Origin: Gammaproteobacteria bacterium
GTDB lineage: Bacteria > Pseudomonadota > Gammaproteobacteria > CBDDKY01
Direction of reading: 5' to 3'
Assembly (NCBI GenBank): GCA_965230455.1
Contig: CBDDKY010000003.1
Coordinates: 45,626 to 109,625, forward strand
Length of the DNA stretch: 64,000 nucleotides
Part shown: positions 27,262 through 61,975 of the stretch, piece after piece
Layout of the letters: the number at the start of each line of letters is the position of its first letter
Position numbering within the stretch: position 1 is the first letter of the stretch
Program-made: the position numbers and the translations under genes
The notes under the pieces: model-generated
Database searches by the model: none
Seen by the model: the letters and a program-made list of their open reading frames with translations, nothing else
Told to the model about the DNA's origin: nothing

Positions 27262-30200
27262 GTGTCATCAATTACCCAGCTCTGAGTAATAAACTAACGG
27301 GTACGCCCGAAAAAATACACTCTCTCTCAGTAGCTTGCAGCCCCTCTTACTCGTCTTTGCGAGCGGCAGCGAAGCAATCCAGGGTGGTAGGCTGACTTGT
27401 TCTATTTTTTCAGTGAACTAGAAACAGGTATGCCCTCTCTTGAACAAGGCAAGGCGTTATGTATTCAGAATGCACAGCTTCGTGGTTTAAACTTTCCTAG
27501 GATTTAATTTGGATTGCCGCGCTGCCGCTCGCAACGACGAATAAGGTGGTGCGTAACAAGTTGATGTAGAATGGTTTTTTTAGGGTGTGCTTGGGCGTTC
27601 ATCATTGCCGCTCGCAAGGACGAATAAGGTGGCGCGTAACAAGTTGGTGTAGAATGATTTTTTTAGGATGTACTTGAGCGTTCATCATTCCTTGTAAAAG
27701 CAAACCGTATTGAGTAATAAACTAACGAGCACACCATAAAAGAAGCATTTCCTTTCAATAGCTTACGGGCCCTCTTACTCGTCTTTGCGAGCGGCAGCGA
27801 AGCAATCCAGGGTGGTAGGCTGACTTGTTCTATTTTTTCAGTGAACTAGAAACAGGTATGCCCTCTCTTGAACAAGGCAAGGCGTTATGTATTCAGAATG
27901 CACAGCTTCGTGGTTTAAACTTTCCTAGGATTTAATTTGGATTGCCGCGCTGCCGCTCGCAACGACGAATAAGGTGGTGCGTAACAAATTGATGTAGAAT
28001 GGTTTTTTTAGGGTGTGCTTGGGCGTTCATCATTCCTTGTAAAAGCAAACCGTACTGAGTAATAAACTAACGGGTACACCATAAAAGAAGCATTTCCTTT
28101 CAATGGCTTACATGCTCTCTTACTCGTCTTTGCGAGCGGCAGCGAAGCAATCCAGGGTGGTAGGCTGACTTGTTTTATTTTTTCAGTGAACTAGAAACAG
28201 GTATGCCCTCTCTTGAACAAGGCAAGGCGTTATGTATTCAGAATGCACAGCTTCGTGGTTTAAACTTTCCTAGGATTTAATTTGGATTGCCGCGCTGCCG
28301 CTCGCAACGACGAATAAGGTGGTGCGTAACAAATTGATGTAGAATGGTTTTTTTAGGGTGTGCTTGAGCGTTCATCATTTCTTGTGAAAGCAAACCGTAC
28401 TGAGTCATAAACTAACGGGTACACCATAAAAGAAGCATTTCCTTTCAATGGCTTACATGCTCTCTTACTCGTCTTTGCGAGCGGCAGCGAAGCAATCCAG
28501 GGTGGTAGGCTGACTTGTTCTATTTTTTCAGTGAACTAGAAACAGGTATGCCCTCTCTTGAACAAGGCAAGGCGTTATGTATTCAGAATGCACAGCTTCG
28601 TGGTTTAAACTTTCCTAGGATTTAATTTGGATTGCCGCGCTGCCGCTCGCAACGACGACTAAGGTGGTGCGTAACAAGTTGGTGTAGAATGATTTTTTAG
28701 GGTGTGCTTGGGCGTTCATCGTTTCTTGTGAAAACAAACCGTACTGAGTAATAAACTAACGGGTACACCATAAAAGAAGTATTGCCTTTCAATGACTTAC
28801 GTGCTCTCTTACTCGTCCTTGCGAGCGGCAGCGCGGCAATCCAGGGTGGCAAGCTGACGTGTCCTTTTTTTTGATGCCTGACCCGTGGGTATGCCCTTCT
28901 TGAACAAGACAGGGCATTAGGCGCTCAGTGCGCACGGCTTTGTGGTTGACACTTTCCTACCGTTCAACTTGGGTCGCGTCGCTGCCGCTCGCAACGACGA
29001 ATAAGGTGGTGCGTAACAAATTGATGTAGAATGGTTTTTTTAGGGTGTGCTTGAGCGTTCATCATTCCTTGTGAAAGCAAATCGTACTGAGTAATAAACT
29101 AACGGGTACACCATAAAAGAAGCATTTCCTTTCAATGGCTTACATGCTCTCTTACTCGTCTTTGCGAGCGGCAGCGAAGCAATCCAGGGTGGTAGGCTGA
29201 CTTATTCTATTTTTTCAGTGAACTAGAAACAGGTATGCCCTCTCTTGAACAAGGCAAGGCGCTATGTGTGCAGAGTCCATAGCTTCGTGGTTTAAACTTT
29301 CCTAGGATTTAATTTGGATTGCTTCGCTGCCGCTCGCAACGACGAATAAGGTGGTGCGTAACAAGTTGGTGTAGAATGGTTTTTTTAGGGTGTGCTTGGG
29401 CGTTCATCATTCCTTGTAAAAGCAAACCGTACTGAGTAATAAACTAACGGGTACACCATAAAAGAAGCATTTCCTTTCAATGGCTTACATGCTCTCTTAC
29501 TCGTCTTTGCGAGCGGCAGCGAAGCAATCCAGGGCGGTAGGCTGACTTGTTCTATTTTTTCAGTGAACTAGAAACAGGTATGCCCTCTCTTGAACAAGGC
29601 AAGGCGTTATGTATTCAGAATGCACAGCTTCGTGGTTTAAACTTTCCTAGGATTTAATTTGGATTGCTTCGCTGCCGCTCGCAACGACGACTAAGGTGGT
29701 GCGTAACAAGTTGGTGTAGAATGATTTTTTAGGGTGTGCTTGGGCGTTCATCATTCCTTGTGAAAGCAAATCGTACTGAGTAATAAACTAACGGGTACAC
29801 CATAAAAGAAGCATTTCCTTTCAATGGCTTACATGCTCTCTTACTCGTCTTTGCGAGCGGCAGCGAAGCAATCCAGGGTGGTAGGCTGACTTGTTCTATT
29901 TTTTCAGTGAACTAGAAACAGGTATGCCCTCTCTTGAACAAGGCAAGGCGTTATGTATTCAGAATGCACAGCTTCGTGGTTTAAACTTTCCTAGGATTTA
30001 ATTTGGATTGCCGCGCTGCCGCTCGCAACGACGAATAAGGTGGTGCGTAACAAGTTGATGTAGAATGGTTTTTTTAGGGTGTGCTTGAGCGTTCATCATT
30101 TCTTGTGAAAGCAAACCGTACTGAGTCATAAACTAACGAGCACACCATAAAAGAAGCATTTCCTTTCAATAGCTTACGGGCCCTCTTACTCGTCTTTGCG

Positions 30201-30578
30201 AGCGGCAGCGAAGCAATCCAGGGTGGTAGGCTGACTTGTTCTATTTTTTCAGTGAACTAGAAACAGGTATGCCCTCTCTTGAACAAGGCAAGGCGTTATG
30301 TATTCAGAATGCACAGCTTCGTGGTTTAAACTTTCCTAGGATTTAATTTGGATTGCCGCGCTGCCGCTCGCAAGGACGAATAAGGTGGTGCGTAACAAGT
30401 TGATGTAGAATGGTTTTTTTAGGGTGTGCTTGAGCGTTCATCATTCTTTGTGAAAGCAAACAGTATTGAGTAATAAACTAACGGGTACGCCCGAAAAAAT
30501 ACACTCTCTCTCAGTAGCTTGCAGCCCCTCTTACTCGTCGTTGCGAGCGGCAGCGAAGCAATCCAGGGTGGTAGGCTC
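27262..30578 (-). repeat. Tandem array B of the same ~345-bp unit, about 10 units, in inverted orientation relative to arrays A and C.
   Basis: It is the reverse complement of the array-A unit, for example 'ggattgccgcgctgccgctcgcaacgacgaataaggtggtgcgtaacaagttg'. It starts about 30 bp after the priA stop and ends about 115 bp before the GNAT gene. Confidence 0.9.
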
Positions 30579-30692
30579 GAGATTTCTCACGTTAAAATCA
30601 CCCCCTTCTTTGAAAGTTTATGCTACAATTTCTTGAAATTTCAGAACTCATAAAGGACGTTGTCCATGCCTCTGACTAAAATATAGAAAATT

Positions 30693-59400: not shown

Positions 59401-59449
59401 ATCGCTAACAGAGCCATCCTCTAGAAGCCTACAGATGTCTACTTTGTGC

Positions 59450-61975
59450 TGAGGGTACGTCTGCTGAATGATGAACGCCCAAGCACATCCGAAAAAATTC
59501 ATTCCCTCTCAGTAGCTTGCAGCCCCTCTTATTCGTCTTTGCGAGCGGCAGCGCGGCAATCCAAATTAAATCCTAGGAAAGTTTAAACCACGAAGCGATA
59601 AACTCCGCACACATAGCGCCTTGCCTTGTTCAAGAGAGGGCATACCCATTGTCATTTATTAAAAAAATAGGATAAGTCAGCCTACCACCCTGGATTGCCG
59701 CGCTGCCGCTCGCAAAGACGAGTAAGAGGGCCCGTAAGCCATTGAAAGGCAATGTTTCTGTTATGGTGTACCCGTTAGTTTATGACTCAGTACGGTTTGC
59801 TTTCACAAGGAATGATGAACGCACAAACACATCCGAAAAAAATTCACTCGCTCTCAGTAGCTTACAACCCCTCTTATTCGTCGTTGCGAGCGGCAGCGCG
59901 GCAATCCAAATTAAATCCTAGGAAAGTTTAAACCACGAAGCTATAGACTCTGCACACATAGCGCCTTGCCTTGTTCAAGAGAGGGCATACCCATACGTCA
60001 CGCATCAAAAAGACAGCGACATGTCAGCCTACCACCCTGGATTGCTTCGCTGCCGCTCGCAAGGACGAGTAAGAGAGCACGTAAGCCATTGAAAGGCAAT
60101 GCTTCTGTTATGCTGTACCCGTTAGTTTATTACTCAGTACGGTTTGCTTTCACAAGAAATGATGAACGCCCAAGCACATCCGAAAAAAATCATTCTACAC
60201 CAACTTGTTACGCACCACCTTATTCGTCCTTGCGAGCGGCAGCGCGGCAATCCAAATTAAATCCTAGGAAAGTTTAAACCACGAAGCGATAGACTCTGCA
60301 CACATAGTGCCTTGCCTTGTTCAAGAGAAGGCATACCTGTTTCTAGTTCACTGAAAAAATAGAACAAGTCAGCCTACCACCCTGGATTGCCGCGCTGCCG
60401 CTCGCAACGACGAGTAAGAGAGCCCGTAAGCCATTGAAAGGCAATGCTTCTTTTATAGTGTACCCGTTAGTTTATTACTCAATACTGCTTTTCACAAGAA
60501 ATGATGAAGAAATGATGAACGCCCAAGCACATCCGAAAAAATTCACTCTCTCTCAGTAGCTTACAACCCCTCTTATTCGTCGTTGCGAGCGGCAGCGCGG
60601 CAATCCAAATTAAATCCTAGGAAAGTTTAAACCACGAAGCGATAAACTCCGCACACATAGCGCCTTGCCTTATTCAAGAGAAGACATACCCCTTTGTCAT
60701 TTATTAAAAAAATAGGATAAGTCAGCCTACCACCCTGGATTGCTTCGCTGCCGCTCGCAAAGACGAGTAAGAGAGCACGTAAGCCAGTGAAAGGCAATGC
60801 TTCTTTTATGATGTACTCGTTAGTTTATTACTCAAGACGGTTTGCTTTCACAAGGAATGATGAACGCACAAGCACATCTGAAAAAATTCACTCTCTCTCA
60901 GTAGCTTACAACCTCTCTTATTCGTCTTTGCGAGCGGCAGCGCGGCAATCCAAATTAAATCCTAGGAAAATTTTAACCACGAAGCTGCGGACTCTGCACA
61001 CATAGCACCTTGCCTTGTTCAAGAAAAGGCATACCCCTTTGTCATTTATTAAAAAAATAGGATAAGTCAGCCTACCACCCTGGATTGCTTCGCTGCCGCT
61101 CGCAAGGACGAGCAAGAGAGCACGTAAGCCAGTGAAAGGCAATGCTTCTTTTATGGTGTACCCGTTAGTTTATTACTCAAGACGGTTTGCTTTCACAAGA
61201 AATGATGAACGCACAAGCACACGCTAAAAAAAACATTCTACATCAACTTGTTACGCACCACCTTATTCGTCCTTGCGAGCGGCAGCGAAGCAATCCAAAT
61301 TAAATCCTAGGAAAGTTTAAACCACGAAGCGATAGACTCTGCACACATAGTGCCTTGCCTTGTTCAAGAGAAGGCATACCCATTTGTCATTTATTAAAAA
61401 AATAGGATAAGTCAGCCTACCACCCTGGATTGCTTCGCTGCCGCTCGCAAAGACGAGTAAGAGAGCACGTAAGTCATTGAAAGGCAATGCTTCTTCTATG
61501 GTGTACCCGTTAGTTTATTACTCAGTACGGTTTGCTTTCACAAGAAATGATGAACGCCCAAGCACATCCAAAAAAAATTCACTCGCTCTCAGTAGGTTAC
61601 AGCCCCTCTTATTCGTCCTTGCGAGCGGCAGCGCGGCAATCCAAATTAAATCCTAGGAACGTTTAAACTACAAAGCTATGGACTCTGCACACATAGCGCC
61701 TTGCCTTATTCAAGAGAAGACATACCCCTTTGTCATTTATTAAAAAAATAGGATAAGTCAGCCTACCACCCTGGATTGCTTCGCTGCCGCTCGCAAGGAC
61801 GAGTAAGAGAGCACGTAAGTCATTGAAAGGCAATGACTCTTCTATGGTGTACCCGTTAGTTTATTACTCAAGACGGTTTGCTTTCACAAGAAATGATGAA
61901 CGCACAAGCACACGCTAAAAAAAACATTCTACATCAACTTGTTACGCACCACCTTATTCGTCCTTGCGAGCGGTG
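59450..61975 (+). repeat. Tandem array C of the ~345-bp unit, about 7 units, in the same orientation as array A. Its right side is cut by an IS630 insertion.
   Basis: The landmark 'aggaaag' recurs at about 59575, 59920, 60266, 60619, 60964, 61339 and 61655. The array sequence stops abruptly at 'ccttgcgagcgg|tgtatatagcaatttcac'. Confidence 0.9.

What the first reader, a model, noticed from the sequence alone, without database searches (positions are those of the whole stretch)
27262..61975. Arrays A and C are direct repeats about 57 kb apart and array B is inverted between them, making them substrates for inversion or excision
Array B (27.3-30.6 kb) is the reverse complement of arrays A and C. 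Homologous recombination between A and B, or between B and C, would invert blocks of about 27-30 kb. Recombination between A and C would loop out about 58 kb, including rpoH, uvrD, priA, rep, leuS and holA. That loop-out would probably be lethal, but it would be visible as rare junction reads. The arrangement may record a past large inversion whose breakpoints lie in the arrays.
Basis: inference. Interest (0 to 1): 0.55.

Follow-up and report, generated by a model that had tools for sequence, protein, structure and literature searches.

The report
Three tandem REP-dimer arrays, one inverted
Three intergenic arrays of a 345-bp repeat built from inverted pairs of a short, cross-phylum conserved REP-like motif sit in this stretch of bacterial chromosome, one of them inverted; they could mediate rearrangements, but the sequence shows no sign that a large inversion happened.

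Summary
Array A (1 to ~1800, cut by the window start), array B (27231-30577) and array C (59463-61975) are tandem arrays of a ~345-bp unit. B is the reverse complement of A and C.

The unit is non-coding and matches no Rfam family or tRNA. It contains two inverted copies of a 30-nt motif, CGTCnTTGCGAGCGGCAGCGnnGCAATCCA. There are 42 copies, all inside the arrays, in strictly alternating orientation, separated by spacers of 126-129 nt and 156-158 nt.

The motif has the CGTC tag and CCA tail of the CGTC-tagged REP superfamily. An almost identical 32-mer occurs in many phyla. The architecture most resembles Neisseria intergenic mosaic element (NIME) arrays and E. coli BIMEs. The 345-bp composite unit itself was found nowhere else.

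The arrays share exact matches of up to 95 bp, so they are plausible substrates for homologous recombination. The proposed past inversion is not supported: GC skew has the same sign in both inter-array blocks, whichever strand the genes are on. Synteny cannot be tested, because the nearest PriA in the databases is only 54% identical. Read-level evidence is unavailable.

Verdict: a real feature, a new variant of a known kind of repeat, of moderate-to-low interest.

The parts
1..1800 (+). Array A. At least 4.5 units of the ~345-bp repeat, truncated by the window start. It carries one irregular 472-bp unit (832-1303) and a degenerate terminal unit (1648-~1800). It lies just beyond the 3' end of the HDOD/EAL gene (1876-3243, minus strand).
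27231..30577 (-). Array B. About 10 units in reverse-complement orientation relative to A and C. It starts at the stop codon of priA (27232) and ends 116 nt before the GNAT gene (30693). The order of left-arm variants is mirror-symmetric: M2, x, y, y, z, y, y, y, x, M2.
   Evidence: (D1-D3, D10, I1-I25)
59463..61975 (+). Array C. About 7 units in the same orientation as A. It begins 115 nt after the stop of the 1906-aa ORF (53628-59348). It is cut off at 61975 by an IS630-family element.
27352..27539 (.). Example of one REP dimer. Two inverted copies of the 30-nt motif CGTCnTTGCGAGCGGCAGCGnnGCAATCCA, with CCA tails facing inward, enclose a conserved 128-nt spacer. Twenty such dimers occur in the window, and 14 of them pair an AA variant with a CG or AC variant.
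27510..27809 (.). Example of the second spacer type. Between two CGTC heads lie 156-158 nt in regular units (240 nt in this irregular unit). This spacer is made of two diverged, inverted copies of a module of about 80 nt (arms about 65% complementary). With the flanking motifs it forms a long imperfect palindrome of about 190 nt.
61976..63099 (-). IS630-family element, about 1.12 kb (transposase 61993-63021). It abuts the end of array C and is 99% identical to the copy at 43250-44373. The sequence beyond it is not array DNA.
   Evidence: (D12)
1801..27230 (.). Unique block between A and B (25.4 kb): HDOD/EAL, DUF4124, glnA, rpoH-like sigma factor, HPPD, two AAA ATPases, uvrD, priA. GC skew -0.098.
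30578..59462 (.). Unique block between B and C (28.9 kb): GNAT, hslO, rep, psd, permease, an IS cluster, leuS-lptE-holA, yaaA, desA, and a 1906-aa ORF. GC skew -0.071.

Best explanation
The three arrays are non-coding intergenic clusters of REP-type elements. Each 345-bp unit holds two inverted copies of a 30-nt, G+C-rich motif with a CGTC tag and a CCA tail. The copies are separated alternately by a ~128-nt and a ~157-nt A+T-richer spacer. The architecture is that of a Neisseria NIME array or an E. coli BIME, but regular and tandem.

Inferred history: a REP dimer with its linker was seeded just downstream of three genes. It was then amplified in place by unequal exchange or replication slippage between units, with occasional gene conversion between arrays. 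Array B happens to lie in the opposite orientation.

Because they are dispersed repeats of 1.8-3.3 kb at 85-87% identity, with exact stretches of up to 95 bp, the arrays are legitimate substrates for homologous recombination. A x B or B x C would invert a block. A x C would delete or duplicate about 58 kb that includes leuS, holA and rpoH.

Shown here: the anatomy, the orientation, the homology and the kinship of the core motif. Inferred: the mode of amplification and the capacity to recombine. Nothing in this sequence indicates that a block inversion has occurred.
For: - Three arrays, with B inverted.
- No ORF of 120 aa or more runs through B or C. Unit lengths vary between 343 and 353 nt, which breaks any reading frame.
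- No Rfam family or tRNA. No promoter-like or terminator-like sites inside B.
- 42 copies of the 30-nt motif against 0 expected, all inside the arrays and in strictly alternating orientation. Spacers are 126-129 nt and 156-158 nt. Motif G+C is 66% and spacer G+C is 40-43%.
- Core kinship: a scan with only 20 specified bases returned 95 loci from many phyla. In 77 of 103 matches the unsearched continuation was NNGCAATC, in 46 it was AAGCAATCCAG, and 44 had an inverted partner arm.
- The CGTC tag, CCA tail, inverted dimers, preference for heterodimers and position just 3' of ORFs match the description of CGTC-tagged REPs (PMC3733652).
- NIME arrays are defined as short inverted repeats flanking 50-150-bp spacers, with a G+C wave, and were proposed as recombination substrates (PMC1797815).
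- Growth in place: the mirror-symmetric, layered order of variants in B (D10), degenerate edge units, and higher identity within arrays than between them.
- Recombination capacity: exact matches of up to 95 bp.
Against: - The single 30-nt motif is only weakly self-complementary. Its DNA fold is -3 to -5.9 kcal/mol with a z-score near 0. A canonical CGTC-1 sequence, recalled from memory, folds at -9 kcal/mol with z = -4.1. Strict membership of the four published CGTC families is therefore not established.
- Published CGTC REPs have spacers of 20-100 bp and rarely cluster.
- No dispersed single copies of the motif occur in the 55 kb outside the arrays, which is unusual for a REP family.
- The rest of the genome could not be retrieved, so genome-wide distribution is unknown.
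- No direct evidence of recombination activity could be obtained.
Confidence: 0.7

Rival explanations
1. The arrangement is the scar of a past large inversion produced by recombination between two arrays.
For: B is inverted relative to A and C. Coding-strand preference flips at B: 73% of coding bases are on the minus strand in block A-B and 73% on the plus strand in block B-C. A central tract of B is closer to A than the average.
Against: GC skew and third-position skew have the same sign and similar size in both blocks, for genes of both strands. The array ends fall in different phases of the unit and share no flanking homology. The layered, symmetric variant order in B suggests long growth in place (D10). 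An old inversion whose skew has since been erased cannot be excluded.
Confidence: 0.1
2. The arrays are multi-copy genes or 3'-UTR modules for a structured RNA, read in the sense of the array B plus strand.
For: All 19 complete units fold about 23 kcal/mol more stably on the B(+)-sense strand. For one unit the z-score is -5.4 on that strand and -3.3 on the other. Arrays A and B lie in the same polarity directly after the 3' end of a gene. REPs are thought to act as RNA elements downstream of genes (PMC3733652).
Against: There is no promoter or terminator consensus inside array B and no Rfam match. None of 37 predicted pairs in the REP-dimer alignment shows a compensatory change. In a strand-neutral comparison the arms are only about 65% complementary, and the G-U bias is only about 10:4 per unit, so most of the strand asymmetry reflects G+T composition. 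Array C has the opposite polarity relative to its upstream gene.
Confidence: 0.1
3. The 30-nt motifs are target sites of a site-specific recombinase or nuclease, and the arrays are programmed recombination or inversion sites, as hypothesised for dRS3 in Neisseria.
For: The motif is extremely conserved: a 32-mer is identical across phyla. The dRS3/NIME precedent includes a phage recombinase that integrates at dRS3 (PMC1797815). GIY-YIG nuclease genes lie within 50-400 nt of the motif in 3 of 95 foreign loci.
Against: No recombinase, RAYT or GIY-YIG gene is in the window, only IS630, IS4/ISAs1-like and IS21 transposition genes. CGTC REPs have no known dedicated enzyme (PMC3733652). There is no evidence of inversion.
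Confidence: 0.08
4. The units are miniature transposable elements (MITEs) derived from the neighbouring IS630 or another IS, piled up by repeated insertion.
For: The unit has terminal inverted repeats. Two IS630 copies are present, one touching array C.
Against: The IS630 ends (TATAGCAATTTCAC...GGCGAGTGCTATA) share nothing with the unit. The regular head-to-tail 345-bp period with shared variants indicates tandem amplification rather than independent insertions. No TA target duplications flank the units.
Confidence: 0.04

Closest known systems
CGTC-tagged REP superfamily (Di Nocera, De Gregorio and Rocco 2013, BMC Genomics 14:522; PMC3733652)
   Same: Terminal CGTC tetranucleotide, a CCA tail, and a stem beginning with T-A pairs. 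Inverted dimers, mostly heterodimers. Intergenic position right after the 3' ends of ORFs. Presence in several phyla. No transposase attached.
   Different: The single motif has only 4-5 Watson-Crick stem pairs plus an interrupted inner helix, and does not fold better than shuffled sequence. Dimer spacers are 126-129 nt and conserved, whereas published spacers are 20-100 bp. Every copy in the window sits in a large regular tandem array, whereas published CGTC clusters are described as rare. The host is a gammaproteobacterium, whereas the published families are mostly alphaproteobacterial.
Neisserial intergenic mosaic element (NIME) arrays (dRS3 + RS elements; Bentley et al. 2007, PMC1797815)
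   Same: Arrays of short G+C-rich inverted repeats flanking spacers of 50-200 bp. The same G+C wave, with peaks at the repeats and troughs in the spacers. Intergenic location. Proposed, and in Neisseria statistically associated, with recombination and rearrangement (PMC9778887). dRS3 is itself classed as a CGTC-1 REP (PMC3733652).
   Different: The dRS3 sequence (ATTCCCN8GGGAAT) is not present. NIME arrays are mosaics of more than 100 spacer families, whereas here only two spacer families alternate in a regular 345-bp tandem unit. In 2007 NIMEs were reported as not observed outside Neisseria.
E. coli BIME-2 clusters (REP/PU elements in alternating orientation with fixed linker motifs; from my own knowledge of Gilson, Bachellier, Boccard and co-workers)
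   Same: REPs alternate in orientation and are separated by two alternating linker types. The cluster is tandemly reiterated and lies downstream of genes.
   Different: BIME REPs are GTAG-type and strongly palindromic. Their linkers are about 10-30 bp and their periods far shorter. Gyrase binding is documented for BIME-2 and untested here.
Tandem arrays of the same core motif in other phyla (L008 Desulfoarculaceae MAG, period 168; L025 Christensenellaceae MAG, period 160)
   Same: The same 32-nt core (TCGTCnTTGCGAGCGGCAGCGAAGCAATCCAG), inverted dimers and tandem reiteration.
   Different: Only about 3 copies. The period is one dimer plus a short linker. They lack the 157-nt palindromic linker, and their spacers are unrelated to those in the window.

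Membership tests
CGTC-tagged REP superfamily | Unpaired CGTC tetranucleotide at one end | tested here: met
   All 42 motif copies begin with CGTC.
CGTC-tagged REP superfamily | Short unpaired 3-nt tail fitting CCA | tested here: met
   All 42 copies end in CCA: 38 as AATCCA and 4 as GACCCA.
CGTC-tagged REP superfamily | Palindromic stem of 8-9 bp whose first two positions are complementary A/T, with a loop of 4-5 nt | tested here: inconclusive
   In the window the stem is TTGC/GCAA (4 bp, or 5 bp in the foreign ATTGC/GCAAT form) plus an interrupted inner 2-3 bp helix around a GGCA loop. The DNA fold is -3 to -5.9 kcal/mol with z near 0. The paper notes atypical loops in Bradyrhizobium CGTC-1, but its consensus figure is not held, so the family assignment could not be checked.
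CGTC-tagged REP superfamily | Mostly organised as inverted dimers, often heterodimers, with spacers of 20-100 bp | tested here: met
   There are 20 dimers, 14 of them heterodimers. The spacer length of 126-129 nt exceeds the usual range.
CGTC-tagged REP superfamily | Intergenic, close to the 3' end of an upstream ORF | tested here: met
   Array B starts at the priA stop codon. Array C starts 115 nt after an ORF stop. Array A ends less than 80 nt from the stop of the HDOD gene.
CGTC-tagged REP superfamily | Many copies dispersed around the genome | not testable with these tools
   Only 64 kb is available. The source genome is not in the collections that could be scanned. Within the window there are no copies outside the arrays.
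Neisserial intergenic mosaic elements (NIME) | dRS3 inverted repeat ATTCCCN8GGGAAT | tested here: not met
   The motif is nTTGC-N13-GCAAT. This is therefore not a NIME in the strict sense, only NIME-like in architecture.
Neisserial intergenic mosaic elements (NIME) | Spacers of about 50-150 bp (range 19-214) bounded by the inverted repeats, clustered in long arrays, with a G+C wave | tested here: met
   Spacers are 126-129 nt and 156-158 nt. Arrays reach 3.3 kb. G+C is 66% in the motif and 40-43% in the spacers. Definition taken.
CRISPR array | Direct repeats separated by unique spacers | tested here: not met
   The repeats alternate in orientation, and the spacers are themselves conserved at 85-99%.
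Integron cassette array | attC sites with RYYYAAC/GTTRRRY cores, ORF cassettes, and an integrase nearby | tested here: not met
   No such cores were seen on reading the units. There are no ORFs in the arrays and no integrase among the annotated genes.
IS630-derived MITE | Terminal inverted repeats matching the IS and TA target duplication | tested here: not met
   The IS630 ends are unrelated to the ends of the unit.

The most novel reading that the evidence does not exclude
NIME-type recombination arrays are not confined to Neisseria. The 30-nt core, identical over 32 nt from Desulfobacterota to Cyanobacteria, Bacillota and this isolated gammaproteobacterium, would be the recognition site of a still unidentified, horizontally shared enzyme; small GIY-YIG nucleases seen beside it in three foreign loci are one candidate. 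That enzyme would seed and expand the arrays. In this genome the arrays, placed about 25-30 kb apart in alternating orientation, would act as programmed hot spots for inversion or as chromosome-structuring sites.
Probability: 0.08. Interest if true: 0.7.

Novelty: new variant of a known kind. Interest (0 to 1): 0.33.

Why it matters
As a finding about rearrangement it is ordinary. Dispersed repeats are well-known substrates for inversion and deletion, and no event is visible here.

The arrays have more value as a case study. They are an unusually large and regular tandem form of REP-dimer clusters, in a lineage with no close sequenced relatives, built on a core motif that is nearly invariant across phyla.

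CGTC-type REPs have no known mobilising enzyme or function (PMC3733652). NIME-like arrays were thought to be peculiar to Neisseria (PMC1797815). A second, independent example could help separate what is generic to such arrays (the G+C wave, the alternating inverted motif, the position after genes) from what is specific to Neisseria.

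Tried and rejected
- **Genome scan.** A scan of genome contigs with the core 21-mer did not recover the source genome. Instead it revealed the cross-phylum motif. A handful of hits (for example L004, L007, L012, L019) are chance matches inside genes.
- **Exact look-ups.** Look-ups of three proteins found no contig: two read from the window (UvrD and the GNAT protein) and the database PriA that is identical to the window's (P0001). Other assemblies or strains could therefore not be compared.
- **Metagenome scan.** A unit-specific 21-mer gave one chance hit in a coding sequence.
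- **Literature searches.** Searches for the motif as a DNA string and as the spurious peptides I remembered returned only irrelevant papers.
- **Rfam.** Nothing was found at gathering thresholds. At relaxed thresholds there were only chance-level hits, E of 0.2 or more.
- **Coding repeat.** Rejected: the period is 345 = 3 x 115, but unit lengths vary and there are no long ORFs.
- **Type I toxin-antitoxin repeats.** Considered because of short ATG-initiated frames in the units. Rejected because the frames are not conserved between unit variants (reading).
- **Inversion clue from the gene next to array A.** The 455-aa gene next to A is not the homologue of the gene that follows priA in distant relatives, so that clue failed.
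- **GIY-YIG association.** Only 3 of 95 foreign loci and none in the window. Kept only as a lead.
- **MITE survey paper (PMC11602168).** It contained nothing on this motif.

Full report
**Observation**

The repeat and tandem-repeat searches confirm three arrays of a ~345-bp unit.
- Array A runs from 1 to ~1800. The window starts inside it.
- Array B runs from 27231 to 30577.
- Array C runs from 59463 to 61975.

B is the reverse complement of A and C. The inverted pairs span 378-1018 nt at 83-94% complementarity. A and C are in direct orientation, about 57.7 kb apart.

Unit identity averages 89-93% within arrays and 85-87% between arrays.

- an rpoH-like sigma factor
- uvrD, priA and rep
- leuS
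- lptE and holA

**What the unit is**

It is not coding. No ORF of 120 aa or more crosses B or C. Unit lengths vary from 343 to 353 nt, plus irregular units of 428 and 472 nt.

There is no tRNA and no Rfam family, and relaxed thresholds give only chance-level hits. No sigma-70-like promoter or intrinsic terminator pattern lies inside B.

Alignment of all units and a motif search show the anatomy. A 30-nt motif, CGTCnTTGCGAGCGGCAGCGnnGCAATCCA, occurs 42 times against 0 expected. It occurs only inside the arrays and in strictly alternating orientation.

- Where two CCA ends face each other, the spacer is 126-129 nt.
- Where two CGTC ends face each other, the spacer is 156-158 nt. This spacer consists of two diverged, inverted copies of a module of about 80 nt.
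- The motif is 66% G+C and the spacers are 40-43% G+C.

The inverted motifs close a nearly invariant stem of about 27 bp. No compensatory change is seen in 37 predicted pairs, so covariation neither supports nor refutes a structural role.

All 19 complete units fold about 23 kcal/mol better on the strand that is '+' in array B. A strand-neutral comparison of the long-palindrome arms tempers this. It shows only about 65% complementarity and a modest excess of G-U-compatible mismatches, about 10 versus 4 per unit. I therefore attribute most of the asymmetry to G+T composition.

**Kinship of the core**

A genome-collection scan with 20 specified bases of the motif did not find the source genome. 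It returned 95 loci from:
- Alphaproteobacteria
- Desulfoarculaceae
- Cyanobacteria (Okeania, Dapis)
- Christensenellaceae
- Bacteroidota
- Ignavibacteriales
- Brocadia
- Omnitrophota and others

The unsearched continuation is conserved. In 77 of 103 matches it reads NNGCAATC, and in 46 it reads AAGCAATCCAG. An inverted partner arm is present in 44. Short tandem arrays of such dimers exist in a Desulfoarculaceae MAG and a Christensenellaceae MAG.

These features fit the CGTC-tagged REP superfamily described by Di Nocera et al. 2013 (PMC3733652):
- the CGTC tag
- a stem starting with T-A pairs
- the CCA tail
- inverted (hetero)dimers
- a position just 3' of ORFs

That paper reports these elements in several phyla, without a dedicated transposase, and rarely clustered except in Neisseria and Wolbachia.

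The same paper equates Neisseria dRS3 with CGTC-1. dRS3 elements flanking 50-150-bp spacers form NIME arrays. NIME arrays show the same G+C wave and were proposed as recombination substrates (PMC1797815). They are the repeat class most often found at Neisseria rearrangement boundaries (PMC9778887).

Two caveats apply. The single motif here folds no better than shuffled sequence. I also could not see the published consensus figures. I therefore call it CGTC-REP-like and NIME/BIME-like in architecture, not a proven member of a named family.

The 345-bp composite unit is lineage-specific. A unit-specific 21-mer found only a chance coding hit in the metagenome collection.

**History of the arrays**

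- Edge units are degenerate.
- In array B the left-arm variants are ordered symmetrically: M2, x, y, y, z, y, y, y, x, M2 (family D10). This is the layered pattern expected from repeated central expansion by unequal exchange in place.
- Unit subtypes are shared between arrays. A2 and A4 match B5 at 94-95%. A1 and A3 match C5 and C2 at 92-95%.
- A two-unit tract in the middle of B is about 92-93% identical to A. This is compatible with old gene conversion or with shared ancestry.
- The arrays end in different phases of the unit and share no flanking sequence. They are therefore not segmental duplications that carried flanks along.

**The inversion and excision idea**

Capacity is plausible. Exact matches reach 95, 87 and 87 bp, and each array pair shares more than 100 exact blocks of at least 25 bp. 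This is above the roughly 25-bp minimum for RecA-dependent exchange in E. coli (my own knowledge), although 13-15% divergence would lower the efficiency.

History is not supported.
- GC skew on the + strand is -0.098 in block A-B and -0.071 in block B-C.
- Third-position skew is negative (-0.13 to -0.21) for genes of either strand in both blocks. A recent inversion of one block would reverse the sign.
- The only hint in favour is that coding-strand preference flips at B. That is weak evidence in a gammaproteobacterium.

Synteny could not decide the matter. The window's PriA has one identical database entry on a 1.52-Mb contig, and the next best hit is 54% identical. In two such distant genomes priA is followed by a hypothetical gene, argS and a SPOR-domain gene, and is preceded by different genes as well. 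Order has therefore changed on both sides, including the side without an array.

The gene next to array A is unrelated to the gene that follows priA in those genomes. Read-level evidence is not available with these tools.

**Array C boundary**

Array C is cut at 61975 by an IS630-family element that is 99% identical to a second copy at 43250-44373. The array sequence at the junction is not a canonical unit interrupted at a TA, and non-array DNA follows the IS. The visible rearrangement at an array edge is therefore IS-associated, not array-by-array recombination.

**Verdict**

The recombination-substrate reading is reasonable but generic. The 'past inversion' reading is unsupported.

The feature is a regular, unusually large tandem form of REP-dimer (NIME/BIME-like) arrays: a new variant of a known kind, of moderate-to-low interest.

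Noticed in passing
window 27281-30551 (array B): The order of left-arm variants along array B is mirror-symmetric (M2, x, y, y, z, y, y, y, x, M2), although all units point the same way. This is a layered pattern like that of satellite arrays that expand from the centre.
   Followed up: partly
window 61960-63110 and 43240-44380: Two IS630-family copies of about 1.12 kb are 99% identical. The second abuts array C. The junction (…GCGAGCGG|TG|TATATAGC…) is not a simple TA insertion into a canonical unit, and non-array DNA plus an IS21 istB gene (63160-63915) follow it. This suggests an IS-associated deletion or rearrangement at the array edge.
   Followed up: partly
window 40700-44400: A low-G+C (36-39%) cluster of insertion sequences. 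It holds an IS4/ISAs1-like transposase (40809-41960; DDE_Tnp_1 plus DDE_Tnp_1_assoc) with a 43-nt end repeat also present at 43036-43078, followed by IS630 copy 1.
   Followed up: no
window 19142-19188 and 52499-52545: A 47-nt sequence is repeated at 98% identity: AGGGTCTGTTGACAATTCATTTTCACGCTGCAATTTGAATAAAACGG. It lies just upstream of two minus-strand genes, a 4-hydroxyphenylpyruvate dioxygenase-like gene and a DesA-family desaturase. It may be a shared promoter or operator.
   Followed up: no
window 38986-39085 and 21043-21092: A 50-nt unit is repeated twice in tandem, and a 66% copy lies 18 kb away. All copies are intergenic.
   Followed up: no
L040 7731-7990; L075 3250-3700; L083 5400-6160: In three of the 95 foreign loci that carry the core motif, a small GIY-YIG nuclease gene lies 50-400 nt from the motif. 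This is a possible lead to the missing enzyme of CGTC-type REPs, but the numbers are small and there is no such gene in the window.
   Followed up: partly
L008 7511-8000; L025 667-1110: Short tandem arrays (periods 168 and 160, about 3 copies) of dimers with the same 32-nt core occur in a Desulfoarculaceae MAG and a Christensenellaceae MAG. The Desulfoarculaceae MAG carries the motif at many loci.
   Followed up: partly
window 25016-27232 (priA) and the whole window: The best non-self PriA match among 5.8 billion proteins is 54% identical, so the organism has no close sequenced relative. Named hits at about 52% are Thiotrichaceae, Motiliproteus and unclassified Gammaproteobacteria.
   Followed up: partly
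window 6819-9998, 12643-17739, 44336-46348, 53628-59348: Four large ORFs (1059, 1698, 670 and 1906 aa) have no Pfam or NCBIfam match.
   Followed up: no
window 19297-20433 and 21425-22537: Two neighbouring paralogous AAA ATPase genes (AAA_14/ATPase_2) lie on the minus strand.
   Followed up: no
window 1801-27230 versus 30578-59462: Coding-strand preference flips at array B, from 73% minus to 73% plus, while GC skew keeps the same sign. This is unexplained. It could be chance or a very old rearrangement.
   Followed up: partly
window 1021-1062 and 59440-59466: The extra module inside the irregular unit of array A is preceded by GGTGCGTCTGCTGAATGATG. The left edge of array C has nearly the same lead-in, GGTACGTCTGCTGAATGATG. 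This suggests that the ~85-nt module can be added as a separate piece with its own boundary.
   Followed up: no
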